Positions 1 to 58,115 of a DNA stretch of 64,000 nt are shown here, one piece after another. The notes beneath the pieces are model-generated. The model saw only the letters and a program-made list of their open reading frames with translations, was not told the DNA's origin and ran no database searches. Position numbers and translations under genes: made by a program. The number at the start of each line of letters is the position of its first letter. Position 1 is the first letter of the stretch. Origin of the DNA: a virus; IMG/VR virus record IMGVR_UViG_3300020595_000028, positions 4,955-68,954 of that record. One strand, 5' to 3'.

Positions 1-3000
1 GGTCTTGAAGTTCAGGTATAGCCAGGAACTCAGGGTCGTTAACAGTACGTTTAGCGATTTCATCGTATAGACGTTGTTTCTTAGATGTCTGTAAAACGTT
101 AGACAACTCAGCTGACGCCCTATCACCAGTAGATAAAGAGATAATCTGCGCCCCAGAGGAACTAGCATCATTCTCAATCATCATCTTGGTTTTGTACTGT
201 CGAAGCTTTCTAACTTCAGCAGTAGTATAGAGTGTCTTATCTAAAGGTACTTTACCTTCCATGTGTCGGTGTATACGAGTATACTCTAACGCAAGACGAG
301 CAAGCTTGCCCACCTCAACATCCTCTGTAGCAGCTACAAGGGAGTTAGATAGGAACTCTTTGATACGTCTGTCTGGCTGAGTAGTACTCATCATCAGGTT
401 GCCAATTTCTAGAAGGTTCTTTTCTTCAGCTTTAAAAGCATTGAGACGACCTTTAACAGTCAGAGTGTCTAGGGGGCTACCAATCAAGGCACCAATCTGT
501 GTCTGCAGTTCTTCTACAGCATCAGGGTTAATTGATACTGGTTTAGCTGTGTTTAAGAACGGACGGACTGCTTCACCCTTAGTAGGTGTAAGTAGTCCAC
601 GGTGATAAACACGACCACGGAAGTCAACAGAAACATCAACAGAGAAAGATTGATTACGTTGCCTATAGTACTTAGCTGTAGCTAAAACACCACGACCATC
701 ATTCCCACGAGACATGAATAGTTTCTTCATCTCGTTTACAGAGTCCCACTTAGCGGCTTCACCTCGTTTATCATTAAAGTATATAAGACGTTCTGTGAAG
801 TCAAAGAACTCAGGGTCAACCTCATACTTAACAGAGTTAGCATGGTTCATCATCTGAGCCATACCTCTATCAATCTGATTAGGGTCGTAGTCGGCATAAA
901 CCTTTTCTGAGACTACAGGCATCTTAGTCTTACGACCACGAGCATCATAGAACTCTTTAGAGCCAGCCCTAGCATAAACCTTATTACGATTATCTGCATA
1001 ACCAAAGCGTCGAGCAATACGAGCCTTTTCCGCAGCAATCTGTAGCTGTTTCATAGGGCCGTTAATGATGCTGATTTGACGAGTAACATTAACACCACGC
1101 AGGGACTTATCACCGATAGGTCTGCCTGTGTTCAAGTCTTTAGGAGAAGAGGTTCCAATGTCACGAATGACTGTAGTTCTAATCATGCCCTGTTTCTCAA
1201 GGGAGTTGATTATTCTACTACCGTCTTTGTGGAACTCTTTGAGTCCCTTCGAGCGGAATGGGTTTAAATCACCTAGTTCTTCGTCGAACATCTGACCAAT
1301 CTTAATAGCCAACATGTCATAATCAGCACCTTCAGCTGTAGCAATAGACTGCATAGCCTTGGAAGTAGCTTTAGTAACTTTGTCCTTGAGTGTTTCTTTT
1401 GCTGTCTTTCTTTTTCTAGCAAATAAAAACTCTCTATCAAGTAACTCTCGTTTAACGCCTCTATACTTGGCAATCTGTTCAGTAAACCAAGAGTCAGAAG
1501 GTGTCTTCTTTTCAAAAAGCTTTTCTAACTTACGCTTAGTCTTTACACCGGGGATTGCGGTAATGAGCTTTGCCTTTAGTTCTTTGGCAGAAGGATAGCG
1601 TTTAATAATAGGTTGCGTGTAAGCAGCAATAGGTGCCTTAACATTAAAATAGGCTTTGTTAGCCAGTTTAGCGCCGTAAGTCCCTTGCCAAGTCTCAATA
1701 TAGCGGTTATCAGCAATCTGAGAATCAATAAGTTCAGAGATTGTGTAGCGCTTATTCAGAATAAATACTTCAGGGTCATTAGCTAACTTAGTAGTTAGGC
1801 CACCGAATAACTTACCTCTATCCGCAGAACGGTTAAACATAAGTGTACCTAAGTCCTGAACAGAGTTCAAAGTAAACTTGCGGAATACAGAAGTAGGCTT
1901 GCCCCAAGGTTCACCAGAGTTATTAGAGCGTGTAAACGTTTGGCGTAACACATCAGTAACAACAGAACGCTGGTTGATAGAAACATCACGACCTAAGTCT
2001 TTAACAAATTTGTCGATGTACTTCTTTTGTTGACTTGTGAGTACAGTACTCTCAGCAACTTTAGCAAGACGCTCAGCTAGAATGTCAGGTTCTTGAATCT
2101 GAATATGACGGCCAGCACCACTAGTATAGTCAGCACCCTCTGCATTGAACACAGCACCTTCACGATTAGACTTAAATGAACGCCTACTGCCTTGCTTCTG
2201 AGACAAAGAGTTTCCTTTGAAGTCAGTCAAAGCAAGTGCCTGAGAGTTCTCAGCAGCATCGTTCTTAAAGTGCGCACGAAGGGCAGCAGTGTGAGCTTTA
2301 GAAGCCATTAACTCTTCAGGAGTAGAGAACCCTAGAGTAATGTTACTTTCGTTATCAGCTGTAGGGCGTTTAACAGTTGTGTTAGCACGACGCATTAGAC
2401 CACGAATAGACAAAGCTTTACCAGCAGGGGAAACAAACTCAGAGGCTTTTAGTTTTCCACGTTGGAAAAGAGAAGCTTGACGTTCACCACCTAGTTGTTT
2501 AATCTGTACATCTGTAGACTGACGACGTAGCCAGCTTGTGTAGTCTTTAATCTTTGAAGGTTGGCCTGTTAGTTCTGAAGGATTAATGTTCTTCAGGTTA
2601 CGAGCTTTAATGTTCTTAGAGTTAACTTGTTCTAGTTCTTCTTTACTCTTAACAACAGGCACCAAGGTAGAACGACAGTTCCAGTGTAAAGGGGGCTGAT
2701 AACGCTTGTCATCAATCTTATACACTTGGCCGTTATGATGAGTACAGATTGGGCTTGTCTTACCATCTAGGATGGCAGTGAACATGTAGCCAGAAAGTAC
2801 TTCAGCGTTAGCTTCCATAACTTGATTCATAGCATCTGTCTGTGTTGTAGTAATAGAGGTTCTAGTCAGTGTCCTAGCTTGGTGCTCAGTAATCTTAGTT
2901 GTCTTCAAAACATCTGCGATGATTTCATTCTGAGTTAAACCTTTAGCTAAACCGCCTTTAACTTTAGTCTGGATACGGACCAGTTCACCAGAGCCAATAT

Positions 3001-3373
3001 TCTTCATATTGCCTTTTAGTGTGCGTGAGCCTTTAATCTGTGGTCCAGTTATTTCTGCCAATAGCTCTTTAGTCTTTGGCTTTTGTGTTCTATAGAACTT
3101 CTTAATTTCAGAATCAAGATTGTTCTTATGAAAGACCTTCTGTGAGTTGGAGAACTCTGACAAACTCTTAGAAGTATGAGCTTGGAGTTCTTTAGTGAAG
3201 CGTGTTACTTCGGGTTTCACATTGGCTCGTATATCCCCTTTCAGGAGGTCTTTTAAATTATTTCTATGCTGTTTAAGGATTGTACGGTTGCCCTTCTGGA
3301 CACCATTTTCATATAGACGGACGTCGCCAGCATGGTCAACAATCCTGTCAAATATCTTTTCGTTAATAGACAT
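1..3373 (-). CDS. MuF/SPP1 gp7-like head morphogenesis domain fused to a T7-like single-subunit RNA polymerase (3'-truncated by window edge; >=1124 aa)
   Basis: Manually translated: ATG at 3373 after GGAGAG RBS, no in-frame stop down to base 2. N-terminal MuF motifs ARTLTRTS, FTAILDGKTSPIC, PPLHWNCRSTLVP (~2660-2790), WLRRQS..Q..LG. C-terminal RNAP motifs VDFRGRVY (605-628) and motif A NDASSSGAQIISLSTGD (122-172). Confidence 0.88.
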   Translation of the reverse strand, partial: MSINEKIFDRIVDHAGDVRLYENGVQKGNRTILKQHRNNLKDLLKGDIRANVKPEVTRFTKELQAHTSKSLSEFSNSQKVFHKNNLDSEIKKFYRTQKPKTKELLAEITGPQIKGSRTLKGNMKNIGSGELVRIQTKVKGGLAKGLTQNEIIADVLKTTKITEHQARTLTRTSITTTQTDAMNQVMEANAEVLSGYMFTAILDGKTSPICTHHNGQVYKIDDKRYQPPLHWNCRSTLVPVVKSKEELEQVNSKNIKARNLKNINPSELTGQPSKIKDYTSWLRRQSTDVQIKQLGGERQASLFQRGKLKASEFVSPAGKALSIRGLMRRANTTVKRPTADNESNITLGFSTPEELMASKAHTAALRAHFKNDAAENSQALALTDFKGNSLSQKQGSRRSFKSNREGAVFNAEGADYTSGAGRHIQIQEPDILAERLAKVAESTVLTSQQKKYIDKFVKDLGRDVSINQRSVVTDVLRQTFTRSNNSGEPWGKPTSVFRKFTLNSVQDLGTLMFNRSADRGKLFGGLTTKLANDPEVFILNKRYTISELIDSQIADNRYIETWQGTYGAKLANKAYFNVKAPIAAYTQPIIKRYPSAKELKAKLITAIPGVKTKRKLEKLFEKKTPSDSWFTEQIAKYRGVKRELLDREFLFARKRKTAKETLKDKVTKATSKAMQSIATAEGADYDMLAIKIGQMFDEELGDLNPFRSKGLKEFHKDGSRIINSLEKQGMIRTTVIRDIGTSSPKDLNTGRPIGDKSLRGVNVTRQISIINGPMKQLQIAAEKARIARRFGYADNRNKVYARAGSKEFYDARGRKTKMPVVSEKVYADYDPNQIDRGMAQMMNHANSVKYEVDPEFFDFTERLIYFNDKRGEAAKWDSVNEMKKLFMSRGNDGRGVLATAKYYRQRNQSFSVDVSVDFRGRVYHRGLLTPTKGEAVRPFLNTAKPVSINPDAVEELQTQIGALIGSPLDTLTVKGRLNAFKAEEKNLLEIGNLMMSTTQPDRRIKEFLSNSLVAATEDVEVGKLARLALEYTRIHRHMEGKVPLDKTLYTTAEVRKLRQYKTKMMIENDASSSGAQIISLSTGDRASAELSNVLQTSKKQRLYDEIAKRTVNDPEFLAIPELQD

Positions 3374-3412
3374 TAGTCTCTCCATTACTATACTTCGTGG
3401 ATGTAGGTGGAA

Positions 3413-3437
3413 GGCACCCCCGCCGAAGCGGGAGTCC
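3413..3437 (-). terminator. GC-rich UUCG hairpin between portal and MuF-RNAP gene (weak U-tract; attenuator or processing site)
   Basis: Minus strand GGACTCCCGC-TTCG-GCGGGGGTGCC. Confidence 0.45.
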
Positions 3438-3525
3438 TTTTATTTGGTGCTAATTAGAGAATTGAACTCTTCTTCTCTGTGGTATGACGCCTGTGATACC
3501 TTTGAGACCGCGAACCTGCGTTAGC

Positions 3526-5100
3526 TTATTCTTCGTCTAACTTAAGTTCATCTTCTTTTAGCTCTGGGTTAGCAACTAAAGGGTCAGTCTGAATCGCTTG
3601 GATAGCCTCTTCATCGTCGTAGTCAGCAGGTAGGAAGTCATTGTACTTCGCAATGTTGACAAACGTATCACGAGAAATAATACCACCTTGGTACCATTCA
3701 GATACAAGACGCATAGCACCTTCGCCACCAACAGTAGCTGCAAAGTCAGCAGAGAGTTGGAATTCGATGTCGTTACCTGTGTAGTCCGTGTCATACTTCC
3801 AGTTTATCATAAAGGCTAGAATCTCTTGCATAGTACCAGAAATCTTAGCGTTCATTGTACCTAACTGAGCAGTCTGAGAAGCGTTACGAATCTCTAGAGC
3901 AACACCTGAAGCGGCTTGTTCTGGAGACAACATGCGGATACCCATCTTGGCCATCTCTTCGACGGTAGATTGAATAGCACGGTCCATATCCGCTAAAGCC
4001 CCCGTAGGTGTTTCTAGCACAGTAATGGATTCGTCTTTGCGAACACGGAGCCAAGTACCAAGACCTGCGCCGACTAGTTCTTCAAACTCTTCGTCAGTCA
4101 TGTCAGACTGCACCACTGGTGTATAGGTGGCCGCACCGTATAGTAGGTGGTTACGACGAGACACTTTGTTGTAGAGTGATACTTCTCTGTCAATCAATGG
4201 CATAAGCACTGGCTCAACAGGCTCAAGTTGCCCATTCAAAGGGAACGCGGGAACGCGGTCCAGACGCTGACCAAACTTCATTGGGTATACTGTGTCATAC
4301 AACTGGAAGCCACCATCAGCGGAGTCTTCGTACTCTTGTTGAATAACACCGTTAAGTGCTTCTACTTCGTGAGAGCCATGAGACTTCTTGTAGTAGTCAA
4401 GAACCAAGAAACCCTGTTCATCAAGGTAGTGGTCACAAACAGTATCTACATAGTTAGGGTGCCAAGGATTATCATCGCTGTATTCTTCGCTGATATAACG
4501 AGTAGTCCAACGGCTAAGAGTCTTAACACGAGTAACTGGGTGAGTCTTAACCTGTACGTTAATAACATTCTCTGCTTTAATCAGAACAGGATAAGGAGAA
4601 ATAGTCATACGCTCTTCAGGAGTCATATTCTCTAGTTCATCGTCTGATACTGTTGGACGGTCAATGTAGACCCAAGCACGAGAAGTTTGTAGCTCTTCCC
4701 AGATAGCAGCATCCAAGAAGTTAAACAAAGAAGCACCATCAAGAGTAATATCCTTAGTAATCCAATCATAAGCATCTTCACTAAGTTCTTCAGGGAGAGT
4801 CAAGGTTGATGGTTTACGTAGCAAAGCACTAATCAGCACACGAGCATACTGAGTTGTTAGACCCGGAAGCTCTGCTTCTGATTTATAAAAGTCATACTGT
4901 GGTTGTGACATACTAGGAGAGAAGGGTAGTAGCAAGTTAGAGTAATCACGCTCGATATACTCATCATGTGCTTTAGCGTGGGCTTCACCCTGCAGTACTG
5001 CGCGAGCTTTCTTCCATAATGGTTTTAGTGACAAGTACGAAGCACTGGGGGTCTCTACACCACGCTTCTGTGTATTAGCAGCTGTTTTAACTAGCGACAT
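3526..5100 (-). CDS. Portal protein (DUF4055-like siphovirus portal)
   Basis: 524 aa; directly upstream of MuF; motifs SGVALEIRNASQTAQL and WYQGGIISRDTF typical of this portal family. Confidence 0.8.
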   Translation of the reverse strand: MSLVKTAANTQKRGVETPSASYLSLKPLWKKARAVLQGEAHAKAHDEYIERDYSNLLLPFSPSMSQPQYDFYKSEAELPGLTTQYARVLISALLRKPSTLTLPEELSEDAYDWITKDITLDGASLFNFLDAAIWEELQTSRAWVYIDRPTVSDDELENMTPEERMTISPYPVLIKAENVINVQVKTHPVTRVKTLSRWTTRYISEEYSDDNPWHPNYVDTVCDHYLDEQGFLVLDYYKKSHGSHEVEALNGVIQQEYEDSADGGFQLYDTVYPMKFGQRLDRVPAFPLNGQLEPVEPVLMPLIDREVSLYNKVSRRNHLLYGAATYTPVVQSDMTDEEFEELVGAGLGTWLRVRKDESITVLETPTGALADMDRAIQSTVEEMAKMGIRMLSPEQAASGVALEIRNASQTAQLGTMNAKISGTMQEILAFMINWKYDTDYTGNDIEFQLSADFAATVGGEGAMRLVSEWYQGGIISRDTFVNIAKYNDFLPADYDDEEAIQAIQTDPLVANPELKEDELKLDEE

Positions 5101-5234: not shown

Positions 5235-5253
5235 TCATTATTCCGCCCTATTT
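5235..5253 (-). promoter_or_regulatory. Class II phage promoter-like repeat AAT(A/G)GGGCGGAATAATGA, upstream of portal
   Basis: 14-nt core GGGCGGAATAATGA identical at 5235, 5346, 29272, 40196 and 50818, always upstream of minus-strand operons. Confidence 0.75.
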
Positions 5254-5261: not shown

Positions 5262-5340
5262 AAAAAGAAGGTAAGCCTGCTAGGTAATCCCAGCAGACTT
5301 TCTTGATTCGAGGACTGTCAGACTTGAGAGCCTGTCCCCT
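5262..5340 (-). ncRNA. Candidate ~80-nt two-hairpin small RNA between tandem class II promoters
   Basis: Begins just after promoter 5346. Stem1 GGGGAC/GTCCTC encloses AGGCT/AGTCT; stem2 AAGTCTGCTGGG-ATTA-CCTAGCAGGCTT is followed by a U-rich tail. Confidence 0.4.
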
Positions 5341-5345
5341 TATTA

Positions 5346-5364
5346 TCATTATTCCGCCCTATTT
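5346..5364 (-). promoter_or_regulatory. Class II phage promoter-like repeat, just after endolysin stop
   Basis: AAATAGGGCGGAATAATGAT. Confidence 0.75.
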
Positions 5365-5365
5365 A

Positions 5366-5911
5366 TTATTTTTTTGGAATCTCAAAGTGAGGTCCGTCAA
5401 TAAATGGTTTTCGTCCTTGTTTTCTTCGAGTTGCCACATAATCATGGTTAGCCTCTTCAGCGTCCTTGTCATTTAACAAATGAGTCCAAGCTGCACCCCA
5501 ACGGATGGTAACATCCAACTCACGGGCAGCCTCTGCGAAGGCTTGAGCGATAGTAATGTAGTGTTCTAAGTCCCAAGTTACCTCACCATCCACATAAGCA
5601 ACTACGTCGATAGCCATACCGTCTTGGTGACGAGAATAACGTACCTGTGTCTTGCCTGTAGCTAGAAGTTGGTTCTGTTCATGCTGTGTACGTAGACCGC
5701 AAGTAATCCCGAAGTCAATCGAGCTATACGTGAGGGCTAAGCGTGCTACTGCTACAAGGCTCTCGTTTACATCGACAAGTTTAACCTCAGAGCGATTCCC
5801 AAACTTCCAGCCATAGGTTTCAACTGGAGTAATACCTTTTAGGTAGCTTGGGGCTGTATCGTCTTTACTGAACATAGAAGTCAGTTTATCTTGTAATTTT
5901 GTAAACTTCAT
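5366..5911 (-). CDS. Endolysin, M15 family L-Ala-D-Glu peptidase
   Basis: GLRT..EQ..L, SRH.DG.A.D and DGPHFE zinc-peptidase motifs. Confidence 0.85.
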   Translation of the reverse strand: MKFTKLQDKLTSMFSKDDTAPSYLKGITPVETYGWKFGNRSEVKLVDVNESLVAVARLALTYSSIDFGITCGLRTQHEQNQLLATGKTQVRYSRHQDGMAIDVVAYVDGEVTWDLEHYITIAQAFAEAARELDVTIRWGAAWTHLLNDKDAEEANHDYVATRRKQGRKPFIDGPHFEIPKK

Positions 5912-5912: not shown

Positions 5913-6305
5913 TTATTGTTTCCACTTATCTACCATCTTCTCACCAGAGCGACCAACGATATAACCACCAACACCAATTTGTAGAAGGTTCCACAGTTCA
6001 GCAGGCAAGTCAATGGCGTAGTCAGAACCTACAAAAAGGTTCAGTACAGGGAAGAACAAGTAGTTCATAGCTACGATTGCGATGATAACCATCATCAATA
6101 GAGGACGCCAAGTAGCAGTCAACCAGTGACCAGACTTAGCTTCTTCCAGAACAATCTTACCACGAAGTGATTCAAGACTGTCTGTATGTTCTAGTAGAGC
6201 TAGTTTAATCTCTTTCTCTACATCCATGCTCTTGTCACCGTCGGGGATAAGGCGTTTAACCAAATCCCCAACGATGGGAGCAAGTACTGTTATTAGTGCG
6301 CCCAT
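5913..6305 (-). CDS. Holin, GTA-type 3TM family
   Basis: WRPLLM..., LWNLLQIGVGGYIVGRSGEK; adjacent to endolysin. Confidence 0.8.
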   Translation of the reverse strand: MGALITVLAPIVGDLVKRLIPDGDKSMDVEKEIKLALLEHTDSLESLRGKIVLEEAKSGHWLTATWRPLLMMVIIAIVAMNYLFFPVLNLFVGSDYAIDLPAELWNLLQIGVGGYIVGRSGEKMVDKWKQ

Positions 6306-18475: not shown

Positions 18476-18489
18476 AATTTTTATTTTAG

Positions 18490-29271: not shown

Positions 29272-29289
29272 TCATTATTCCGCCCCATT
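29272..29289 (-). promoter_or_regulatory. Class II phage promoter-like repeat, start of late (packaging/structural) region
   Basis: AATGGGGCGGAATAATGAT, directly after a terminator. Confidence 0.75.
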
Positions 29290-40195: not shown

Positions 40196-40213
40196 TCATT
40201 ATTCCGCCCCATT
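40196..40213 (-). promoter_or_regulatory. Class II phage promoter-like repeat upstream of exonuclease/primase
   Basis: AATGGGGCGGAATAATGAC. Confidence 0.75.
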
Positions 40214-42455: not shown

Positions 42456-42468
42456 CGTTAGAGTTCTC

Positions 42469-42615: not shown

Positions 42616-42835
42616 TGGAGTTCTCCTCTTTTATCTTCTTTAGCTCGTCTTGGTAAGCAGCCCAAGCAGCATCAGCAGCAGCATCAAGGGCAGCGACAGC
42701 CTTCCAAGCAGCATCATCAGCAACATACTCATCATCAACAAATTCCGGCACAGCCAAAGCATCATAAACAGCAGCACGAGCAGCATCACGAGCAGCTTCA
42801 ACAGCCGCCTTCAGTTTTTCAAGTTTAGTCATCAT
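42608..42835 (-). CDS. Ala-rich mini-gene family member 3
   Basis: MTKLEKLKAA...AAWAAYQDELKKIKEENSND. Confidence 0.65.
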   Translation of the reverse strand: MMTKLEKLKAAVEAARDAARAAVYDALAVPEFVDDEYVADDAAWKAVAALDAAADAAWAAYQDELKKIKEENSND

Positions 42836-50166: not shown

Positions 50167-50194
50167 AAAAAAGGCCACCCCCGAAGGGATGACC
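50167..50194 (-). terminator. Rho-independent terminator after SSB
   Basis: GGTCATCCC-TTCG-GGGGTGGCC-TTTTTT. Confidence 0.85.
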
Positions 50195-50817: not shown

Positions 50818-50836
50818 TCATTATTCCGCCCTATTT
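50818..50836 (-). promoter_or_regulatory. Class II phage promoter-like repeat, first copy downstream of RNAP gene
   Basis: AAATAGGGCGGAATAATGAC. Confidence 0.75.
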
Positions 50837-51034: not shown

Positions 51035-53278
51035 TTAGGCAAAGGCGAAGTCGGATTGGATGATTTCTGAGACATCAAGATTTCCTTTTTCTGGGATTAA
51101 GTGTGCGGATTGCATCTGTTCAAAGATGTGTTCCAAGGGGTTTTTGTCGTATAGCTCTACAAAGTGCCTACGCACATCATAGAACGCTTGTTCCATGTTA
51201 CCAGCGTGACAACCGAAAGAGTCATGCACAACAGTAACAGGATAGTCTGTATCGTGGATAAACATAGACAAGTGTACTGCATCTAAGCTATGAACGATAT
51301 TAGGTGGTGCTGACTGTGTTTGTTTGTCTTTATTAAGTGTAGCATTTTCCCACAGAGTAAACTCTAGCTCCATGCGTACACCATTGTGTTTTAGCTTAAC
51401 AGTCTTATTAACACCCTTGCGATAGGCATGAACAAAAGGTAAACCCGTGATTATCTGGCGGAATGCGATAGGCTTGCCTGTAAAGACCTCGCCATCTTCG
51501 TCGTGCCACTCACGGTTATTCTCGTGTTCACCTAGAGCCTCAAACATACGCAGCATCTTAGCTGGACCTTCAAGCTCTCTATAGCAAGTCTCGTAAATCA
51601 TGTCGCCAAGATAGGCAGACCACGACTTGTGCTTATCTCGTAAGTAGGTTGAGATGTCGCGTGTATCATCGTGTACTTGTTCTACCATACCGTATTTAAC
51701 GGCACCGTAGCCTAGTGTCATAACGGGGCGCTTAACAGTCTTGCGCCATGTCTTAGGGTTCTTAATGTTGTACCAGTAGAGTGGTGCAAACTTCTTTAGA
51801 GCGTCTCGTTTAGCATTACCGAAAGCACTACGCCTTTGGATGGCCTGAGAGAACAACTCTGAACGAGAATTAACAGAGTGTTTATTTACCGATTGTTCCA
51901 ATGCTACGAAGTCATCATATAGTTCTTTAAATGCTTCGGCATTGCCCTCTTCTTCAAGAAGCTTTTCTGCATCAACGTTGACTTGCCCAATTACTTTGTC
52001 TGCAATAAACATGTATACATCACCTGGAAGGTCTTGTGGGACTAAGTTAACCAGTGGTGCTACAAGCTCATCTTTAGACATGGCGACTAGGTGTTGGACG
52101 CCGTTGTTAGAACCGTCAATGTAGATAGGTAGGCATGATGGGAAGTCTTCTGTGTTGTTACCTTCTCCAACCCAATCCTGTAGTAGTTTTAGTTCGTTGC
52201 AACATGCAAGGAAACAGAAAGGTTTGTCTGCATCCATCCAGTCGTCATTAACAATAGGGTCATTGACATAACTTATAATCTTGTCAAAGTTATCTTGAAC
52301 CCAAGTAGCACGGTCATCAAGCGAGACTTTGTCGTTGCCCCACATATTAGCCGTGTGTACTGATAGCCAGTAGTAACCGTTGTCTCCTAGAGGTATGGGC
52401 GCGTCGAGCAGTAGAAGCCCTTTGGCGTTGTCTGAGGATTGTTCATGTAGAAACGCAGTGTTAGGGTATATGCGACCACGAAAGTCAACATTATACAGAT
52501 GATAGAAAGCATTATTCAAGTTCCTTTCTGCTAACTTTTCGATAGCTCTTGCTTCGATTTCTAGTGATGCACGTTTGGTAGGGTCTACTTCTTTCTTAAA
52601 CTTAAAGGGTGTTTTCTTAGAAGTTAAGAAAGTACATTGTTTAAATACATCAAACACAAAGGGGTTAATGCTCCAACCTGTCTTGTTTAGTTTGTTCAAG
52701 GTTTCAATTAAGTACTCAGTACCCCCTTCTTTACAAGCAGCAATAGCATCTTCGTGGGGGGCTTTTTTAATAAGGGTGTATCCGCTCTCATGGTAGTATT
52801 TCCCAACAACCCAATCAGCAGGAGCTACGGGTGCAGGGAACATTTCGGTGCTGTCGTCCTCAATAGACTCCATCACGTTGTTTAAGGCTTCAGCATCTTC
52901 AACTCGAACATGGTAGGACGAGTGCTTGCTTAGTTTTCCGTTCTTCTTCTTCTTACGCTTCTTAACGATTGATACTATGTTGGTGTCGATGTAGGCTAAG
53001 AATATAAACCAACCGAGGTGGATTGCGTCTAATTCGTTAAACCTTAGTTTGTACTTTCTATTTATACTATTACCAACCGACGATAGAATGTTTGTTAATT
53101 CAGACATAACTTCGATTTTAGTAAGGATGTGTCCGTAGGTAAAACTTATCATCTCTTGGGGGTCTTTGTCGAACAAAGGCCAAGGGGTGTTACGCTTGTC
53201 AGGCTTCTCACCCTTTAAGTCCAGTAGATAACCTTGTCGTTCTTTAATGTTATCACAGAGGGTTCCCATCGCGTTCAT
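51035..53278 (-). CDS. T7-like single-subunit DNA-directed RNA polymerase
   Basis: DFRGRIY, DGSNNGVQH (motif A), RKTVKRPVMTLGYG (motif B), PNIVHSLDA, VHDSFG (motif C), C-terminal DFAFA as in T7. Confidence 0.95.
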   Translation of the reverse strand: MNAMGTLCDNIKERQGYLLDLKGEKPDKRNTPWPLFDKDPQEMISFTYGHILTKIEVMSELTNILSSVGNSINRKYKLRFNELDAIHLGWFIFLAYIDTNIVSIVKKRKKKKNGKLSKHSSYHVRVEDAEALNNVMESIEDDSTEMFPAPVAPADWVVGKYYHESGYTLIKKAPHEDAIAACKEGGTEYLIETLNKLNKTGWSINPFVFDVFKQCTFLTSKKTPFKFKKEVDPTKRASLEIEARAIEKLAERNLNNAFYHLYNVDFRGRIYPNTAFLHEQSSDNAKGLLLLDAPIPLGDNGYYWLSVHTANMWGNDKVSLDDRATWVQDNFDKIISYVNDPIVNDDWMDADKPFCFLACCNELKLLQDWVGEGNNTEDFPSCLPIYIDGSNNGVQHLVAMSKDELVAPLVNLVPQDLPGDVYMFIADKVIGQVNVDAEKLLEEEGNAEAFKELYDDFVALEQSVNKHSVNSRSELFSQAIQRRSAFGNAKRDALKKFAPLYWYNIKNPKTWRKTVKRPVMTLGYGAVKYGMVEQVHDDTRDISTYLRDKHKSWSAYLGDMIYETCYRELEGPAKMLRMFEALGEHENNREWHDEDGEVFTGKPIAFRQIITGLPFVHAYRKGVNKTVKLKHNGVRMELEFTLWENATLNKDKQTQSAPPNIVHSLDAVHLSMFIHDTDYPVTVVHDSFGCHAGNMEQAFYDVRRHFVELYDKNPLEHIFEQMQSAHLIPEKGNLDVSEIIQSDFAFA

Positions 53279-53455: not shown

Positions 53456-53483
53456 GCCCCACCACCCCGAAGGGCAGCAGGGC
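53456..53483 (-). terminator. G.U-rich UUCG hairpin ending the early region
   Basis: GCCCTGCTGCCC-TTCG-GGGTGGTGGGGC followed by T-rich tract. Confidence 0.65.
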
Positions 53484-53903: not shown

Positions 53904-54134
53904 TTAGTCATTTGTTTCTTCCTTTTGTGTTTCCTTTAGCTCGGCCTCGTAAGCATCCAAAGCAGCATCAAGAGCATCCTCAACAGCATCATAATAAGCA
54001 TTCCAAGCATCACGAGCAGCAGTCTCAGCAGCATCAACAGCAGCATCACAAACAACCCAAGCAGCATCTAAAGCAGCCTCATAAGCAGCACAAGCAGCAT
54101 TACAAGCAGCCTTCAGTTCTTCTGGTTTAGTCAT
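53904..54134 (-). CDS. Ala-rich mini-gene family member 5
   Basis: MTKPEELKAA...DAYEAELKETQKEETND. Confidence 0.65.
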   Translation of the reverse strand: MTKPEELKAACNAACAAYEAALDAAWVVCDAAVDAAETAARDAWNAYYDAVEDALDAALDAYEAELKETQKEETND

Positions 54135-54294
54135 CTTCCTTATCCTTTGTCTTATTTAGCTCAGCTTCGTAAGCAGCCCAAGCAGCATCCCAAGCATCAG
54201 CGTAAGCATCATAAGCAACAGCATCATAAGCAACAGCATCATAAGCAGCCCAAGCATCAGCCTCAGCAGCCTTCAGCTCTTCTAGCCTAGTCAT
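54127..54294 (-). CDS. Ala-rich mini-gene family member 6
   Basis: MTRLEELKAA...AAWAAYEAELNKTKDKEDD. Confidence 0.65.
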   Translation of the reverse strand: MTRLEELKAAEADAWAAYDAVAYDAVAYDAYADAWDAAWAAYEAELNKTKDKEDD

Positions 54295-54472
54295 TTGTAG
54301 CTTCCTTTGCTTTTGGTGTACCCAGTAGAAGTAGCAAGATAATGCCACCGATAGGGAAGATGATGATGCTTAGAATAGCCCAAGCCATTCCGTTACGGTT
54401 ACGCTTTTCAGCCATAGTATGAATCAACCAACCTAGTAGACCCCAGACGATTAGTACAATAAGAATTTCCAT
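54287..54472 (-). CDS. Small 2-TM membrane protein
   Basis: A.KRNR..W..L..I.P; hydrophobic. Confidence 0.6.
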   Translation of the reverse strand: MEILIVLIVWGLLGWLIHTMAEKRNRNGMAWAILSIIIFPIGGIILLLLLGTPKAKEATND

Positions 54473-54517: not shown

Positions 54518-54832
54518 TTAAGCGCTAGTGCCGCCGAATACTTTAAGGCAGTTTTGTAGCATAACCATACCGAATTGGGTTGGTTTAATGTTTGGGTACT
54601 CATAAGCTAGTTGAACAGTCTGAATAGCAAAGTTCATAATAGCAGGTTGGTCAGCACTACTATCAACAACAATGTCGATTGCATTAGTACGAGACAATCC
54701 TTTGTCACGAGCATCTGCGATGTTGAAAGCCATTACTGATATTGTAGTGCAGAACGGGACTGGTGGTTGTGCAGCCTGTGCAGTGGTTACAGTTAGAGTA
54801 AGTGCGATAGCGGCGATGATTGATTTAAACAT
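54518..54832 (-). CDS. Secreted protein (signal peptide, Cys pair)
   Basis: MFKSIIAAIAL...AQA. Confidence 0.6.
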   Translation of the reverse strand: MFKSIIAAIALTLTVTTAQAAQPPVPFCTTISVMAFNIADARDKGLSRTNAIDIVVDSSADQPAIMNFAIQTVQLAYEYPNIKPTQFGMVMLQNCLKVFGGTSA

Positions 54833-54856
54833 AGTTAGTCCTTTCAAGACTTTGAT

Positions 54857-54873
54857 TTCTTCGTTATAGAGGG
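54857..54873 (-). promoter_or_regulatory. Class I (early) promoter-like repeat CCCTCTATAACGAAGAA
   Basis: Identical at 54857, 56131 and 58099; each about 20-25 nt upstream of a start codon. Confidence 0.7.
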
Positions 54874-54889
54874 TTAGTTCTTCTCAGTC

Positions 54890-55264
54890 TTACCAGTCAT
54901 CACCTAGAGTGATTTGGTTGCTGTTTTTCGATTTGGTGTTTGCTATTTGAGCACGAAGTAGTTCAAGCTCAAGTTGTTCTCTTTCAAGCTGAATTTCCTG
55001 ACGCTTAATAGAGATGTCATACAGGCGGTTACAGTCTACTTTGCGTAGCTTCTTTTTACCTAATTGTATTTTATAGGTTGCCGACAAGGTTCCTTCATTT
55101 GTAGCAGTGTTAATGCTAGTTCCGAATTCCATTGTACGACCTGTGTCTTCGTTTTGTGAACAACCAGCACCGTTGCTAGTTTGGACATTGTAGCTATTTG
55201 CGGACGCCATTGATGATAAGGCGACTACAGACAATACTGATAATGCTAGGCTTACTTTCTTCAT
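54890..55264 (-). CDS. Secreted protein with coiled-coil C-terminus
   Basis: Signal peptide, C...C pair, heptads. Confidence 0.6.
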   Translation of the reverse strand: MKKVSLALSVLSVVALSSMASANSYNVQTSNGAGCSQNEDTGRTMEFGTSINTATNEGTLSATYKIQLGKKKLRKVDCNRLYDISIKRQEIQLEREQLELELLRAQIANTKSKNSNQITLGDDW

Positions 55265-55580
55265 AACCAACTCCTATTAGTTTTGAACATACAAGAAGCT
55301 TTCTTTGTCCTACAGACTTAAAGTCTATTGATACTTGCTTCTTGCTTTTGGGTTTCATTTTATAAGTTTCTTTAGAAGTCCTCCAACCATCAGCTGGAGA
55401 ACCATCTTTGTTTAGCACATAGACTTCCATAGTTATTGGGAAGCCATAATGGTTCTCTAGCTCGTAAGTCTTCGTATAGACCGGAGCAGGAGCATATTCA
55501 GTCTCAAACCCCGGCGACATAGAGTGCGCCGAGGAGAGAGCAGGTAACAGCAGCAGTACCATAGCTACAATATACTTCAT
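55194..55580 (-). CDS. Secreted Ig-fold/pilus-chaperone-like protein (tentative)
   Basis: Signal peptide then AH.M.P, L.N, beta-strand pattern, terminal Cys pair. Confidence 0.45.
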   Translation of the reverse strand: MKYIVAMVLLLLPALSSAHSMSPGFETEYAPAPVYTKTYELENHYGFPITMEVYVLNKDGSPADGWRTSKETYKMKPKSKKQVSIDFKSVGQRKLLVCSKLIGVGYEESKPSIISIVCSRLIINGVRK

Positions 55581-55581
55581 A

Positions 55582-56106
55582 TTACTGTAGGCAAGTTACT
55601 GTGTGATTGATTTTGTAATCCGTGTCGTCGGTGATGTTTAGTGTTTCATCTTCTGTCATAGTAGCTTTACCGCCAATTGAGAAGGTTACTTTAGTAACAC
55701 CGTTGCCGTTTTTCTTTAGATTACCAGCTGTCAGGCTGTTTGAGTTCCGGTTAGTAGTAGCATCATTCTTGCCTTTAACACTGATAGTAGACTGTGGAAG
55801 ATAGTTAACAACTACATCCGCTACATCTGTGTTGTTAGTAGTGCGTAGCTTGTTGTCAGACTCAACCTTTACATTGTTAGTATTACGAACCTTAAGAACA
55901 ACAACCGCGTTAGAAGTTGTATTCCAAGTCATAGTAGCATCGTCATAGGACATTGTGCCTGCTTGGTTCTTTTTAAACTGGCAGTCGCCAGAGCCGTGAA
56001 CTACACCAGAGTCGCCACCCCAAGTGGCAGTTCCTGAACCGTTGTTAGCGAAAGAAGCAGTAGCAGTTACAGAAGCGATGATAGCGGAGATTACGAGAGT
56101 TTTCAT
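55582..56106 (-). CDS. Secreted pilin-like beta protein (tentative)
   Basis: Signal peptide, G.V...C.F, G.M, Thr/Asn-rich, C-terminal TVTC. Confidence 0.45.
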   Translation of the reverse strand: MKTLVISAIIASVTATASFANNGSGTATWGGDSGVVHGSGDCQFKKNQAGTMSYDDATMTWNTTSNAVVVLKVRNTNNVKVESDNKLRTTNNTDVADVVVNYLPQSTISVKGKNDATTNRNSNSLTAGNLKKNGNGVTKVTFSIGGKATMTEDETLNITDDTDYKINHTVTCLQ

Positions 56107-56130
56107 AGTTAGTCCTTTCAAGACTTTGTT

Positions 56131-56147
56131 TTCTTCGTTATAGAGGG
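56131..56147 (-). promoter_or_regulatory. Class I (early) promoter-like repeat
   Basis: CCCTCTATAACGAAGAA. Confidence 0.7.
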
Positions 56148-56161
56148 TAGTATTTCCCCAC

Positions 56162-56566
56162 TTATTTGTAGGGTGTTTCGTTTGTGTAGAATAGGTGATT
56201 ACCTATCTTACCGTCGTACTCGTAGTGTTTAGTCCAGAAGGGTGAGACCTCCACAGAGTGGTAGTGTGTGGCTGTTAAGCCCAGTTGATTAGTACTACCA
56301 TCCAAGACGTCAGAGGCTAGCTCTTTGATGCCTCTCCAGGCCTGTCTGTCTAAGTATGACATACGAGTTGGGTCGTCATGGATGCCGTCGTGAGTCCAAG
56401 AGAATTGGTTCTTCTCCCAGACAACTTCACAAACAGTATCAGGGTAGCGTTTGTCTGCTACTCTGTTCAGTGTTACTTCAGCCACAGCGAGTTGACCATC
56501 AGTAGTTTCGTGACGTGCTTCAAAGAACACGTTAAGTGCCAAGCACATTGTTGCTGTCATAATCAT
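56162..56566 (-). CDS. SleB-like cell wall hydrolase (Hydrolase_2)
   Basis: CLALNVFFEAR.E...GQLAVAEV.LNRV, YP.TVC.VV...QFSW, IGNH.FY. Confidence 0.88.
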   Translation of the reverse strand: MIMTATMCLALNVFFEARHETTDGQLAVAEVTLNRVADKRYPDTVCEVVWEKNQFSWTHDGIHDDPTRMSYLDRQAWRGIKELASDVLDGSTNQLGLTATHYHSVEVSPFWTKHYEYDGKIGNHLFYTNETPYK

Positions 56567-57398: not shown

Positions 57399-57402
57399 TC
57401 TA

Positions 57403-57666
57403 TTATCCTTTCTTTTTTTCTGTTTGAGTGCCTACAAGGTTTGAAACTAGAGCAAGAGCATCATAGACAAAGAAGCCTACAACAGTTGCTGTAGCCATTC
57501 CGTTAGAGGGGTCGTGAACAAGCAGAGACATAGCGAGACAACCTGAGCCTAAAGTGGGGTAAGGTTTGGCTATCCAGTCTTGGTTAGTTATTGCGTGAAA
57601 GATGGCTGCGAGAAGTACTCTGTACATTACGCCTAAAAGTGCTAAGCCTATCATTGTGGTCTCCAT
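57403..57666 (-). CDS. Membrane protein
   Basis: Three hydrophobic segments. Confidence 0.5.
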   Translation of the reverse strand: METTMIGLALLGVMYRVLLAAIFHAITNQDWIAKPYPTLGSGCLAMSLLVHDPSNGMATATVVGFFVYDALALVSNLVGTQTEKKKG

Positions 57667-57696
57667 TTCTGGTTAAGTTTGCAAAGCCCGTACAAT

Positions 57697-57990
57697 TCAT
57701 ACGGGGTGGACAGTAGCTACCTCAACGAAGCAGCTAGCGCGGTTTTCAAAGTAGTCACGAGGGAGTACCCACTCAGCAAAAGTGCCGTGGATAGCATCTC
57801 CCTCACATACACCACGGTATGCGTTGAAGTGAGCTGGAAGTTCATCCATCTCGATTTCTACAACAGCGCCTTTAGAGTATTTAGCAGCGTTGTCGAAAGA
57901 GTCAGTCCAGTGAGTTACGTCACGAGTCTGTGTGTCGAGAGCTAGTTCATTAGCTTCACGAATTGTAGTGCCTCTGTAGAATTTAAACAT
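57697..57990 (-). CDS. Putative ADP-ribosyltransferase-fold protein
   Basis: FYRG, HWT.S...A..Y, VVEI, AEWVL (R-S-E-like arrangement). Confidence 0.5.
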   Translation of the reverse strand: MFKFYRGTTIREANELALDTQTRDVTHWTDSFDNAAKYSKGAVVEIEMDELPAHFNAYRGVCEGDAIHGTFAEWVLPRDYFENRASCFVEVATVHPV

Positions 57991-58098
57991 TGTGTTCTCC
58001 TTTTGGTTTGATTAGCTGATGTGTGCGTCGATTGTAGCGATTAGTAGTACTGTGATAAAGCCGATTCCAACATATAGCATGGTAGTCTCCTTTTGGGT

Positions 58099-58115
58099 TT
58101 CTTCGTTATAGAGGG
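58099..58115 (-). promoter_or_regulatory. Class I (early) promoter-like repeat, first after TMP terminator
   Basis: CCCTCTATAACGAAGAA. Confidence 0.7.

What the first reader, a model, noticed from the sequence alone, without database searches (positions are those of the whole stretch)
1..58115. Two polymerases and two promoter classes: a self-contained transcription cascade
Seen: two divergent T7-family RNAPs (MuF-fused at 1-3373; stand-alone at 51035-53278) and two unrelated intergenic repeats. CCCTCTATAACGAAGAA (3x) occurs only upstream of the stand-alone RNAP gene, in the early region. GGGCGGAATAATGA (5x) occurs only downstream of it, before SSB, exonuclease/primase, terminase and portal. 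All genes are co-oriented. Inference: the virion RNAP reads class I, the newly made RNAP reads class II, and class II drives the gene for the next virion RNAP. This is an N4-like logic reached independently in a long-tailed phage.
Basis: partly seen in the sequence, partly recalled or inferred. Interest (0 to 1): 0.88.

Follow-up and report, generated by a model that had tools for sequence, protein, structure and literature searches.

The report
Two-polymerase transcription relay in marine phage
A complete 69-kb long-tailed marine phage encodes two T7-type RNA polymerases, one fused to its capsid-docking MuF protein and one free, and each seems to have its own promoter class, so the phage may run its whole gene programme with little or no help from the host's polymerase.

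Summary
Both motifs are exact, co-oriented with the genes and far above chance: 3 and 5 copies against 0.19 expected. The genome has exactly two RNA_pol matches and one MuF match.

The free polymerase (RNAP2) reading class II is well supported. Class II has T7 promoter architecture. Its -12..-5 block exists in eight variants among relatives. Each variant is tied to one form of RNAP2's specificity-loop region. In recombinants the promoter is swapped between near-identical flanks. The variant does not follow similarity of the fused polymerase.

The fused polymerase (vRNAP) reading class I is inferred. Class I is a roughly 38-nt bipartite element with only two variants across those lineages, like the conserved loop region of vRNAP. 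Packaging, transcription starts and rifampicin resistance are untested.

The two motifs are not unrelated, because they share the core ATAAYGA. The logic has a precedent in a long-tailed phage, Thermus phage P23-45, though with unrelated enzymes.

I found no paper describing a MuF-fused T7-type polymerase. This scan has already noted the same design in other genomes.

The parts
1..3385 (-). Window part of the gene for the MuF-fused T7-family RNA polymerase (vRNAP). The full protein is 1483 aa and continues into genome bases 3888-4954, outside the window.
   Evidence: Translation. Pfam Phage_Mu_F at residues 138-241 and RNA_pol at 1056-1443, above cut-off. It is the only MuF match in the genome. 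D1073, K1141, Y1149, G1150 and D1398 are invariant in 12 aligned homologues. Fold matches: T7 RNAP E=3.9e-13; mitochondrial RNAP Z 16.7, T7 RNAP Z 13.9, DNA Pol I only Z 7.9.
3526..5100 (-). Portal-type protein (DUF4055), the first gene of the head operon, directly upstream of the MuF-RNAP gene.
   Evidence: Pfam DUF4055 E=8.1e-9. It occupies the same position as the annotated portal of DSS3_VP1.
5235..5248 (-). Class II promoter-like motif, the proximal copy of the tandem pair before the portal.
   Evidence: Exact copy, context. Tandem pairs about 110 nt apart stand before the portal in 16 related loci, each in that lineage's own variant.
5273..5300 (-). Terminator-like hairpin between the two tandem class II copies.
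   Evidence: 12-pair stem followed by a T-rich tail.
5346..5359 (-). Class II promoter-like motif, the distal copy of the tandem pair. It is followed by about 85 nt without an ORF.
29272..29285 (-). Class II promoter-like motif heading the operon of terminase, tail fibres, holin and endolysin.
   Evidence: Exact copy. Terminase_6N at 25675-27006. Tail proteins, holin and endolysin.
40196..40209 (-). Class II promoter-like motif, 32 nt before the exonuclease start. Primase-helicase and ribonucleotide reductase follow.
50818..50831 (-). Class II promoter-like motif about 200 nt after the RNAP2 stop, heading the gp2.5-like SSB gene.
   Evidence: A promoter-like block sits at the same position in 31 of 37 related loci within 420 nt. 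The other 6 loci have it 0.7-1.3 kb downstream.
50173..50194 (-). Intrinsic-terminator-like hairpin plus T6 after the SSB gene. It is identical to the hairpin after the tape measure gene.
51035..53278 (-). Stand-alone T7-family RNA polymerase (RNAP2), 747 aa.
   Evidence: Pfam RNA_pol E=6.1e-79. Motifs A, B and C are visible in the translation. It is 47% identical to the annotated RNA polymerase of DSS3_VP1.
53456..53483 (-). 12-pair hairpin with a T-rich tail between the early genes and the RNAP2 gene. It could act as an attenuator.
54857..54873 (-). Class I promoter-like motif, third copy. It heads genes for a signal-peptide protein, small membrane proteins, Ala-rich proteins and an HTH protein, and then RNAP2.
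56131..56147 (-). Class I promoter-like motif, second copy. It heads three genes for signal-peptide proteins. Its leader is a duplicate of the third copy's leader.
58099..58115 (-). Class I promoter-like motif, first copy. The conserved element extends about 20 nt further upstream (A-tract plus GTGGGGGAAA).
   Evidence: Position table from 35 distinct instances.
58168..58189 (-). Intrinsic-terminator-like hairpin plus T6 directly after the tape measure gene. It closes the late operon just before the first class I copy.
58198..62886 (-). Tail tape measure protein, the last gene of the late operon.
   Evidence: Pfam TMP_3 E=3.2e-53.

Best explanation
This is a complete genome of a marine siphovirus related to the Naomviridae. 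It runs a relay of two single-subunit RNA polymerases.

Step 1 (inferred). The 1483-aa MuF-RNAP fusion is built into the capsid at the portal through its MuF domain and leaves with the DNA.

Step 2 (inferred). It starts transcription at the three class I promoters that follow the terminator after the tape measure gene. The consensus is A5-[G/C]TG[G/A]G[G/A]AAA-N5-[C/G]C[C/A]TCTATAA[T/C]|GAAGAAA. These units carry small early genes and, after a possible attenuator hairpin, the gene for the free 747-aa polymerase.

Step 3 (supported by co-variation). The free polymerase reads the five class II promoters, AAAT[A/G]-GGGCGGAA-TAAT|GA. This has the T7 layout: an AT-rich block at -17..-13, a specificity block at -12..-5, an AT-rich melting block at -4..-1, and G at +1. 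These promoters head the SSB and DNA polymerase module, the exonuclease, primase and reductase module, the terminase, tail fibre and lysis module, and the operon running from portal through MuF-RNAP and capsid to tape measure. The last operon makes the polymerase for the next virion.

The start positions are predicted, not mapped.
For: Enzymes. The genome has two RNA_pol matches above cut-off and one MuF match. The catalytic residues of the fusion are invariant in 12 homologues down to 45% identity. Its fold matches T7 and mitochondrial RNAPs at Z 13.9-16.7, against Z 7.9 for DNA Pol I.

Layout. In circular order the genome reads: late terminator, 3 class I copies, RNAP2, 5 class II copies at module heads, then the late terminator again. 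Sigma-70-like sites are at or below shuffle expectation in all four scans: 20 against 30.3, 39 against 35.9, 19 against 20.5 and 21 against 25.3.

RNAP2 and class II.
- A promoter-like block sits between RNAP2 and the SSB gene in 31 of 37 related loci.
- Its -12..-5 block has eight variants (A-H). Each is multi-copy and sits at homologous places.
- Among 26 RNAP2 sequences, the 20-aa specificity-loop region has a median identity of 85% within a variant (43 pairs) and 25% between variants (282 pairs).
- L013 and L008 have flanks as close to this window as clade-A relatives (83%/95% and 69%/96%), but they carry the promoter of their own RNAP2 type.
- The class II variant does not follow vRNAP identity: 94% gives B, 84% gives C, 82% gives D, 80% gives A.

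Class I and vRNAP.
- 35 distinct instances in 24 loci show only two variants (CCC or GCA at -11..-9), across RNAP2 types A-D and F-H.
- Positions that my search pattern did not fix are conserved: A at -30..-26 in 29-35 of 35, C at -10 in 35 of 35, AA at +6/+7 in 35 of 35.
- The vRNAP segment that aligns with the specificity loop is 76-93% identical in six same-contig pairs, where the RNAP2 segment ranges from 42 to 100%.
- The base that would be sigma-70's key T at -7 is C in 3 of 3 copies here and in 7 of 35 instances overall.

DSS3_VP1, which has a different host, shows the same architecture.
Against: - No transcription start, virion proteome or rifampicin experiment exists for any member of the family.
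- In 28 of 35 instances class I contains a perfect TATAAT, so a host holoenzyme is not excluded.
- A hairpin with a T-rich tail lies between the last class I copy and the RNAP2 gene. If it terminates fully, RNAP2 would need another promoter.
- Co-variation is partly confounded by shared ancestry. One pair differs in promoter (L010 type C against L012 type D) at 73% overall identity, while OWN and L031 share a promoter at 69%. The determinant residues are therefore not pinned down.
- One contig (L073) holds a B-type tandem pair plus one exact F-type copy.
- The structure model is only moderate (pLDDT 69.1, pTM 0.54, 12 sequences).
- Two of the three class I copies here share a duplicated leader, so they are not independent.
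Confidence: 0.55

Rival explanations
1. Class I is read by the host RNA polymerase as a strong -10-type promoter, as in T7 early transcription. The MuF-fused polymerase has another task, such as pulling DNA in, priming, or reading sites that I did not find.
For: TATAAT is present in 28 of 35 class I instances. There is an A-tract upstream that could act like an UP element. No experiment ties vRNAP to class I.
Against: All 3 copies in this genome read TATAAC, which loses the T that sigma-70 needs at the last -10 position. No -35-like hexamer is present: GTGGGG lies 13 nt from the hexamer. Conservation extends well outside a -10 element, from -30 to +7, and persists between phages of different hosts, including DSS3_VP1 of Ruegeria. 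Sigma-70-like sites are not enriched anywhere. Under this reading a conserved, catalytically intact virion polymerase would have no recognisable promoter.
Confidence: 0.15
2. The MuF-RNAP is not delivered into the next cell, or is delivered but inactive there. It acts only inside the producing cell, for example as a late or auxiliary polymerase, and the early genes start by another route.
For: Packaging and ejection are inferred only from the MuF domain and the gene's place after the portal. No virion proteome was found.
Against: This is the only MuF protein in the genome, so a MuF role at the portal would fall to it. The papers I read treat MuF-fused domains as cargo delivered by phages (PMC5512222, passages; PMC5576092, passages). 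The fusion is kept in 59 IMG/VR loci and 192 cluster representatives.
Confidence: 0.12
3. Both motif classes are read by the free polymerase, perhaps with an early co-factor, or one class is not a promoter at all but, say, an RNA-processing site or the binding site of a regulator.
For: Both classes share the core ATAA[T/C]GA. Starts have not been mapped.
Against: The -11..-7 block is CCCTC in class I and GGCGG in class II. Class I stays the same in lineages whose RNAP2 loop region and class II block are entirely different. Both motifs lie only in intergenic spacers, on the coding strand, 30-135 nt before start codons or just after terminators.
Confidence: 0.08

Closest known systems
Coliphage N4 (Schitoviridae): virion RNAP gp50, then RNAPII gp15/gp16, then host RNAP
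   Same: A T7-family polymerase is carried in the virion and starts early transcription, and a second T7-family polymerase is made early and takes over. This comes from passages of PMC5512222, abstracts listed, and otherwise from recall.
   Different: N4's enzyme is about 3,500 aa and has no MuF domain. Its promoters are DNA hairpins, RNAPII is a heterodimer, late genes use host RNAP, and the virion is short-tailed (these points are recalled). Here the fusion is 1483 aa with MuF. A hairpin reading of class I is not supported. RNAP2 is a single 747-aa chain, class II also heads the late operons, and the phage has a tape measure protein.
Thermus phage P23-45: tape-measure-fused virion RNAP gp96 plus non-virion RNAP gp64
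   Same: It is a long-tailed phage. Its virion polymerase is fused to a structural protein and transcribes pre-early genes, including the gene for the second polymerase. Two distinct promoter motifs were found, and relatives without the fusion lack the first motif (PMC10770324, abstract and passages).
   Different: Both P23-45 enzymes are two-barrel polymerases related to cellular RNAPs, the fusion partner is the tape measure protein, and late genes use host RNAP. Here both enzymes are T7-type and the partner is MuF.
T7/SP6-type polymerase and promoter pairs (Autographiviridae)
   Same: RNAP2 matches Pfam RNA_pol strongly. Class II has the same 17+1 layout as the T7 promoter, and its specificity block changes together with the loop region of the enzyme. 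The T7 promoter layout and loop contacts are recalled.
   Different: T7 relies on host RNAP for early genes and has no virion polymerase. RNAP2 here is at most 31% identical to polymerases outside the Naomviridae-like group in the phage collection.
Roseophages DSS3_VP1 and DSS3_PM1 (Naomviridae), dU-DNA siphoviruses
   Same: The gene order is the same, running portal, large 'head morphogenesis' protein, capsid, tape measure, small genes, RNAP, DNA polymerase. Both polymerases are present at 45-47% identity. A class I-type motif follows the tape measure gene, and there is a multi-copy class II variant of its own.
   Different: No homologue of the DSS3_VP1 dCTP deaminase gene was found here by tblastn. 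A gene annotated 'phosphoesterase', which I only guessed to be its dTMP phosphatase, also found nothing. GC content is 43% and the genome is 69 kb rather than 75 kb. In the records the fused gene is annotated only as head morphogenesis or minor head protein.
MuF-fused cargo proteins (polymorphic MuF toxins; polyvalent proteins)
   Same: An N-terminal MuF module is followed by a C-terminal enzymatic domain thought to travel with the DNA (PMC5576092 and PMC5512222, passages).
   Different: The cargo here is a polymerase. 'Polymerase' occurs 0 times in PMC5576092. PMC5512222 states that N4-like virion RNAP modules occur only in N4-like phages.

Membership tests
T7-family single-subunit RNA polymerase (Pfam PF00940), stand-alone gene | Profile match above the curated cut-off, with motifs A, B and C intact | tested here: met
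   E=6.1e-79, 266 bits against a cut-off of 22. The motif A Asp, the motif B Lys..Tyr-Gly and the motif C His-Asp are visible in the translation.
T7-family single-subunit RNA polymerase (Pfam PF00940), MuF-fused gene | Profile match above the cut-off, conserved catalytic residues, polymerase fold | tested here: met
   29.1 bits and 32.5 bits against a cut-off of 22. D1073, K1141, Y1149, G1150, H1397 and D1398 are invariant in 12 sequences. Foldseek gives T7 RNAP at E=3.9e-13. VIA gives Z 13.9-16.7 for T7 and mitochondrial RNAPs against 7.9 for DNA Pol I. The model is of moderate quality (pLDDT 69.1).
MuF / SPP1 gp7 minor head protein (Pfam PF04233) | Profile match above the cut-off, and a gene placed directly after the portal | tested here: met
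   58.7 bits against a cut-off of 29.6, at residues 138-241. It is the only match in the genome. The gene follows the DUF4055 portal-type gene.
MuF / SPP1 gp7 minor head protein (Pfam PF04233) | Presence in the virion and release with the DNA | not testable with these tools
   No virion proteome of any relative was found. The main text of PMC8323127 has none, and its supplements were closed.
N4-like (Schitoviridae) virion RNAP system | Hairpin-form early promoters | tested here: not met
   In the 71 distinct contexts printed, GAGA upstream elements occur with both CCC and GCA downstream blocks, so there is no compensatory pairing. The possible stems are only 3-4 bp with 7-9-nt loops.
N4-like (Schitoviridae) virion RNAP system | A giant virion RNAP of about 3,500 aa and a heterodimeric RNAPII | tested here: not met
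   The fusion is 1483 aa and RNAP2 is a single 747-aa ORF. The N4 sizes are recalled or taken from abstracts.
T7-type promoter (class II) | AT-rich block at -17..-13, specificity block at -12..-5 that changes with the enzyme's specificity loop, AT-rich block at -4..-1, and G at +1 | tested here: inconclusive
   The sequence layout fits, and the block co-varies with the loop region. The start site is predicted, not mapped. The T7 layout itself is recalled.
Naomviridae (family of DSS3_VP1) | Shared gene order and core proteins | tested here: met
   Synteny with NC_055826.1. RNAP2 is 47% identical and the vRNAP domain 47%. The formal demarcation criteria were not applied.
Naomviridae (family of DSS3_VP1) | dU-DNA pathway genes (Dcd, Dtm) | tested here: inconclusive
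   The DSS3_VP1 deaminase (gp070), queried by tblastn against the whole genome, gave no hit at E<=1e-3. A gene annotated 'phosphoesterase' (gp041), which I only guessed to be Dtm, also gave none. The paper calls Dtm an HD hydrolase and I did not verify which gene it is. No profile search was run.
P23-45-type virion RNAP | A two-barrel polymerase fused to the tape measure protein | tested here: not met
   Pfam finds only TMP_3 and a weak glycine zipper in the tape measure protein. Both polymerases here are T7-type.

The most novel reading that the evidence does not exclude
A widespread marine lineage of long-tailed phages (Naomviridae and their relatives) transcribes its entire genome without host RNA polymerase. 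It uses two T7-type enzymes. One rides into the cell on the portal-bound MuF protein and reads a nearly invariant 38-nt promoter. The other exists in at least eight natural, mutually exclusive pairs of polymerase and promoter, and recombination exchanges these pairs as cassettes. That would make MuF a delivery vehicle for a polymerase, and the lineage a ready-made library of orthogonal polymerase-promoter pairs.
Probability: 0.35. Interest if true: 0.85.

Novelty: new variant of a known kind. Interest (0 to 1): 0.7.

Why it matters
Relays of a virion polymerase and a second polymerase are known from N4, the jumbo phages, crAss-like phages and P23-45. Each uses a different enzyme or carrier.

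Here the carrier would be MuF, a common portal-associated head protein. The enzyme is an ordinary-sized T7-type polymerase, and class II promoters also head the late operons. The phage might therefore need no host polymerase at all.

The design is not rare. I found 59 IMG/VR loci and 192 cluster representatives, and it occurs in the cultured roseophages DSS3_VP1 and DSS3_PM1, where the gene is annotated only as a head protein. It can thus be tested directly in a culturable system.

For the dU-DNA members, having their own polymerases would give a reason why a thymine-free genome can still be read. This parallels PBS2/AR9, a point I give from recall.

The eight class II variants, each tied to one form of the RNAP2 loop region and swapped between near-identical flanks, are a natural set of candidate orthogonal polymerase-promoter pairs for synthetic biology. 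They are also a clean system for studying how promoter specificity evolves.

Tried and rejected
In the contexts, GAGA upstream elements occur with both CCC and GCA, so there is no compensatory change. I rejected the idea.

Sigma-70 promoters. Four scans covering the window found no enrichment.

Other repeated motifs. An 11-mer count, a reading of all intergenic spacers and a search for weaker class II-like sites gave no third promoter-like class. They showed only TTCG-loop hairpins and coding repeats.

Metatranscriptomes. Contigs of three RNA runs from three studies (X18, X19, X20) lie on the early region, the SSB gene and the DNA polymerase gene. Their depth is zero or near zero in the bins over the tape measure gene, which the DNA run X1 covers evenly. 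Most of these contigs are 90-99% alike, so they come from relatives. One RNA contig spans the RNAP2 end, the class II site and the SSB gene (record 10). It shows neither read-through nor a start.

N4 mini-vRNAP. It does not appear among the entries listed, whereas N4 RNAPII gp16 does, at Z 13.7. I draw no conclusion from its absence.

phmmer of the whole fusion against PDB sequences gave only E of about 2, which is uninformative.

Pelagibacter phage Kolga has a free RNAP at 31% identity, a 633-aa MuF protein without a polymerase, and no class I element. It shows one AT-rich 2-mismatch hit that lacks the upstream element. This is a single case and a very different genome, so it is only weakly consistent.

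EBPR siphovirus 1 has the fusion, split by an HNH endonuclease gene, but it is a partial, GC-rich record and has no class I sequence of this type. It is uninformative.

dU-DNA. tblastn with DSS3_VP1 gp070 (deaminase) and gp041 ('phosphoesterase', which I only guessed to be Dtm) found nothing. The kinase gave one weak hit.

Literature searches that found no description of a MuF-fused or siphoviral T7-type virion polymerase:
- 'Naomviridae' (7 papers).
- 'DSS3_VP1' with 'RNA polymerase'.
- 'MuF' / 'virion RNA polymerase' / 'siphovirus'.
- 'roseophages' with 'deoxyuridine'.
- 'Kolga' / 'Pelagibacter phage' / 'RNA polymerase'.
- 'MuF' / 'RNA polymerase' / 'T7-like' / 'virion' (0 papers).
- 'two RNA polymerases' / 'single-subunit' / 'bacteriophage' / 'virion'.
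- 'gp7' / 'MuF' / 'RNA polymerase domain'.
The library lacks most subscription journals, and supplements were closed. An annotation table in the supplements of PMC8323127 could name the domain.

Full report
WHAT IS THERE

The window is bases 4955-68954 of a single 68,954-bp virus record, which CheckV rates 100% complete. Its two ends abut. Relatives read straight across the junction with about four extra bases (compare the last spacer with L094 and L008). The motif counts below therefore hold for a whole genome. All long ORFs lie on the minus strand. GC content is 43%.

The closest cultured phages are the roseophages DSS3_VP1 and DSS3_PM1 (Naomviridae), at 47% identity for the free polymerase. 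After them come Pelagibacter phages Kolga and Aegir at 31%. Gene order matches DSS3_VP1: portal, a very large 'head morphogenesis' protein, capsid, tape measure, small genes, RNA polymerase, DNA polymerase.

THE TWO POLYMERASES

The free enzyme lies at 51035-53278(-), is 747 aa, and matches Pfam RNA_pol at E=6.1e-79.

The other ORF starts at window 3385 and runs off the window. In full it is 1483 aa. It has a MuF domain at residues 138-241 (E=1.2e-15) and an RNA_pol match at 1056-1443 that passes Pfam's cut-off (29.1 bits against 22; 32.5 bits).
- In an alignment of 12 homologues down to 45% identity, the motif A aspartate (D1073), the motif B K1141, Y1149 and G1150, and the motif C H1397 and D1398 are invariant.
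- An AlphaFold model of residues 620-1483 is moderate (pLDDT 69.1, pTM 0.54).
- That model finds T7 RNAP first by Foldseek (E=3.9e-13).
- By VIA-align it finds mitochondrial RNAPs (Z up to 16.7), T7 RNAP (Z 13.9) and N4 RNAPII gp16 (Z 13.7). DNA polymerase I follows only at Z 7.9.

The two polymerases of this genome are barely alignable to each other (best BLASTP segment 20% identity, E=8e-4). The fusion is the only MuF protein in the genome, and it sits directly after the portal-type gene.

The fusion family is compact but not rare.
- 59 IMG/VR loci.
- 192 of 1.84 billion cluster representatives at E<=0.001.
- Only 4 of 50,697 phage records: two DSS3_VP1 records, DSS3_PM1 and EBPR siphovirus 1. 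All are annotated as head proteins.

THE MOTIFS

Both motifs are exact, lie on the coding strand and are intergenic. There are 3 class I copies and 5 class II copies, each against 0.19 expected. No further copy lies in the rest of the genome.

In transcription order the genome reads as follows.
1. The tape measure gene.
2. A hairpin plus T6 (58189-58168).
3. The first class I copy (58115).
4. Small genes and a SleB-like hydrolase.
5. The second class I copy (56147).
6. Three genes for signal-peptide proteins.
7. The third class I copy (54873).
8. More small genes.
9. A 12-pair hairpin (53483-53456).
10. The RNAP2 gene.
11. A class II copy (50831).
12. The gp2.5-like SSB gene, followed by the same hairpin plus T6 as after the tape measure gene (50194-50173).
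13. The nucleotide-metabolism genes and DNA polymerase.
14. A class II copy (40209).
15. Exonuclease, primase-helicase and ribonucleotide reductase.
16. A class II copy (29285).
17. Terminase, tail proteins, holin and endolysin.
18. Two class II copies in tandem (5359, 5248).
19. Portal, MuF-RNAP, capsid and tail genes, ending at the tape measure gene.

Sigma-70-like sites are at or below shuffle expectation throughout.

THE TWO CLASSES SHARE A CORE

Aligned on ATAA[T/C]GA, they read:
- class I: ...CCCTCT-ATAAYGA-AGAA
- class II: ...GGGCGGA-ATAATGA

If the G is taken as +1 (a prediction), class II becomes AAAT[A/G] (-17..-13), GGGCGGAA (-12..-5), TAAT (-4..-1) and G(+1)A. That is the layout of a T7 promoter as I recall it.

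Class I has no conserved AT block at -17..-13 of that kind. Instead it has a second element further upstream. A table of 35 distinct instances from 24 loci gives A5-[G/C]TG[G/A]G[G/A]AAA-N5-[C/G]C[C/A]TCTATAA[T/C]|GAAGAAA. My search pattern fixed positions -25..-20 and -8..+2, so their invariance is partly by construction. The unconstrained positions are also conserved: A at -30..-26 in 29-35 of 35, C at -10 in 35 of 35, AA at +6/+7 in 35 of 35.

WHO READS CLASS II

Among the 37 related loci with an RNAP2 gene, 31 have a promoter-like block within 420 nt after it, before the SSB gene. The other six have one 0.7-1.3 kb further on.

The AT-rich start and the end of the block (TAATGA, TTATGA or TAAAGA) are kept. 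The -12..-5 part comes in eight variants, which I labelled A to H. Each variant is multi-copy in its own lineage, lies on the coding strand and sits at homologous places: before the SSB gene, before the exonuclease gene, and as a tandem pair about 110 nt apart before the portal in 16 loci.

The segment of RNAP2 that aligns with T7's specificity loop changes with the variant. Over a 20-aa stretch in 26 sequences, median identity is 85% within a variant (43 pairs, minimum 55%) and 25% between variants (282 pairs, maximum 65%).

Shared ancestry alone could give this pattern, but recombinants break the confound.
- L013 has flanks as close to this window (83% upstream, 95% downstream) as clade-A relative L004 (83% and 93%), yet it carries the D-type promoter that fits its D-type RNAP2.
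- L008 has a 96% identical downstream flank and the B-type promoter of its B-type RNAP2.
- The class II variant does not follow the fused polymerase. Contigs whose vRNAP is 94%, 84%, 82%, 80% and 79% identical to this one carry B, C, D, A and A.

I take this as good evidence that the free polymerase reads class II.

There are caveats. L010 (type C) and L012 (type D) differ in promoter at 73% overall identity, while OWN and L031 share a promoter at 69%, so the decisive residues are not identified. One contig, L073, has a B-type tandem pair and one exact F-type copy.

WHO READS CLASS I

Class I shows only two variants (CCC or GCA at -11..-9, mostly with GTGGGG or GTGAGA upstream), across genomes whose RNAP2 types run from A to D and F to H. 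The free polymerase can therefore hardly be its reader.

That means either the host holoenzyme or the fused polymerase. The vRNAP segment that aligns with the specificity loop is nearly invariant in the 12-sequence alignment. In six same-contig pairs it is 76-93% identical, where the RNAP2 segment ranges from 42 to 100%. Its largest change is in the DSS3_VP1 pair, whose class I variant also differs.

Four points argue against the host.
- All three copies here read TATAAC, and 7 of 35 instances have C at that place.
- There is no -35-like hexamer. GTGGGG lies 13 nt from the hexamer.
- Conservation runs from -30 to +7.
- The element is shared with DSS3_VP1, a phage of Ruegeria.

An N4-like hairpin is not supported, because GAGA upstream elements occur with both downstream variants.

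This leaves the fused polymerase as the most economical reader. It remains an inference by exclusion.

DELIVERY

That the fusion is packaged and ejected rests on three things: its MuF domain, its being the only MuF protein, and its place after the portal. The papers I read describe SPP1 gp7 as bound to the portal in one or two copies per capsid. They treat MuF-fused domains as delivered cargo (PMC5576092, passages; PMC5512222, passages). Neither paper lists a polymerase as cargo. The second states that N4-like virion RNAP modules occur only in N4-like phages.

COMPARISON WITH WHAT IS KNOWN

The logic is that of N4. It is also that of Thermus phage P23-45, which is long-tailed. There a virion polymerase fused to the tape measure protein reads pre-early genes, including the gene of a second polymerase. 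Each enzyme has its own motif, and relatives without the fusion lack the first motif (PMC10770324, abstract and passages). The claim of a first N4-like relay in a long-tailed phage therefore does not stand.

Three things are new here. Both enzymes are T7-type. The carrier is MuF. Class II heads all replication, assembly and lysis operons, so no stage visibly needs the host enzyme.

The founding paper on Naomviridae contains 'RNA polymerase' and 'RNAP' 0 times in its main text (its other mentions of polymerases concern DNA polymerase). The 2025 paper on dU-DNA enzymes contains 'RNA polymerase', 'RNAP', 'promoter' and 'transcription' 0 times. Eight full-text searches found no description of the fusion. 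Supplements were closed.

This scan itself has already noted and followed up the same design in other genomes. I used those notes only as leads, and they are not independent evidence.

VERDICT

- The free polymerase reading class II is well supported by comparison of relatives.
- The virion polymerase reading class I, and its delivery, are plausible and untested.

This is a new variant of a known kind of system. It is widespread, and it can be tested in a cultured phage.

Noticed in passing
window 54873-56161: One metatranscriptome contig (X18) and two metagenome contigs (X1) join the third and second class I copies and skip the roughly 1.24-1.29 kb between them, which holds three signal-peptide genes. 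The duplicated promoter-plus-leader seems to serve as a recombination site that adds or drops an early gene cassette.
   Followed up: partly
window 5262-5345, and 16 related loci: The tandem class II pair before the portal is about 110 nt apart and encloses an ORF-free stretch ending in a 12-pair hairpin with a T-rich tail. The arrangement is kept in relatives of variants A, B, C and D. It may encode a short abundant RNA or act as an attenuator.
   Followed up: partly
L107 and L079 (vRNAP); L032, L035 and L039 (RNAP2), with longer match spans also in L033 and L036-L038; JF412302.1 gp47-gp49: In several relatives the genes of both polymerases are interrupted. The tblastn match spans about 0.5-1 kb more than the ORF, and in EBPR siphovirus 1 an HNH endonuclease gene lies between the two halves of the fusion. 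This suggests introns, inteins or homing elements that target the polymerases.
   Followed up: no
window 53904-54348, 42456-42800, 36440-36570 and about 43125: A family of small ORFs is built from repeated Ala/Asp/Trp-rich units. Their DNA repeats are the most frequent 11-mers in the genome. No function is known.
   Followed up: no
window 58168-58189 and 50173-50194; also 18451-18476, 24609-24625, about 3400-3440 and genome bases 1-161: A family of G+C-rich hairpins, mostly with TTCG loops, follows major genes. Two of them are identical 22-mers with a T6 tail. They are likely terminators or RNA-stabilising ends for the phage polymerases.
   Followed up: partly
L073:911 against L073:8137 and 8245: One contig carries a B-type tandem promoter pair and one exact F-type promoter. 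It may be a leftover of recombination or a sign of relaxed specificity.
   Followed up: no
window 48903-49280, 44677-45159, 38717-39463 and 33826-34215: Four free-standing endonuclease genes (two endonuclease VII/HNH-like, one GIY-YIG-like, one HNH) are scattered through the replication module. This fits the heavy recombination seen among relatives.
   Followed up: no
window 54518-56566: The early region encodes a SleB-like cell-wall hydrolase and four proteins with signal peptides. The true lysis pair (holin at 5913-6305, endolysin at 5366-5911) lies elsewhere. The early exported proteins might act in superinfection exclusion or envelope remodelling.
   Followed up: no
whole genome: tblastn found no homologue of the DSS3_VP1 dCTP deaminase gene. 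A gene annotated 'phosphoesterase', which I only guessed to be its dTMP phosphatase, also found nothing. This relative may therefore carry ordinary thymine DNA, though only tblastn was tried.
   Followed up: partly
window 29200-29270: Directly after the class II copy at 29285 comes a run of G-tracts, and then about 250 nt of AT-rich sequence without an ORF before the next gene.
   Followed up: no
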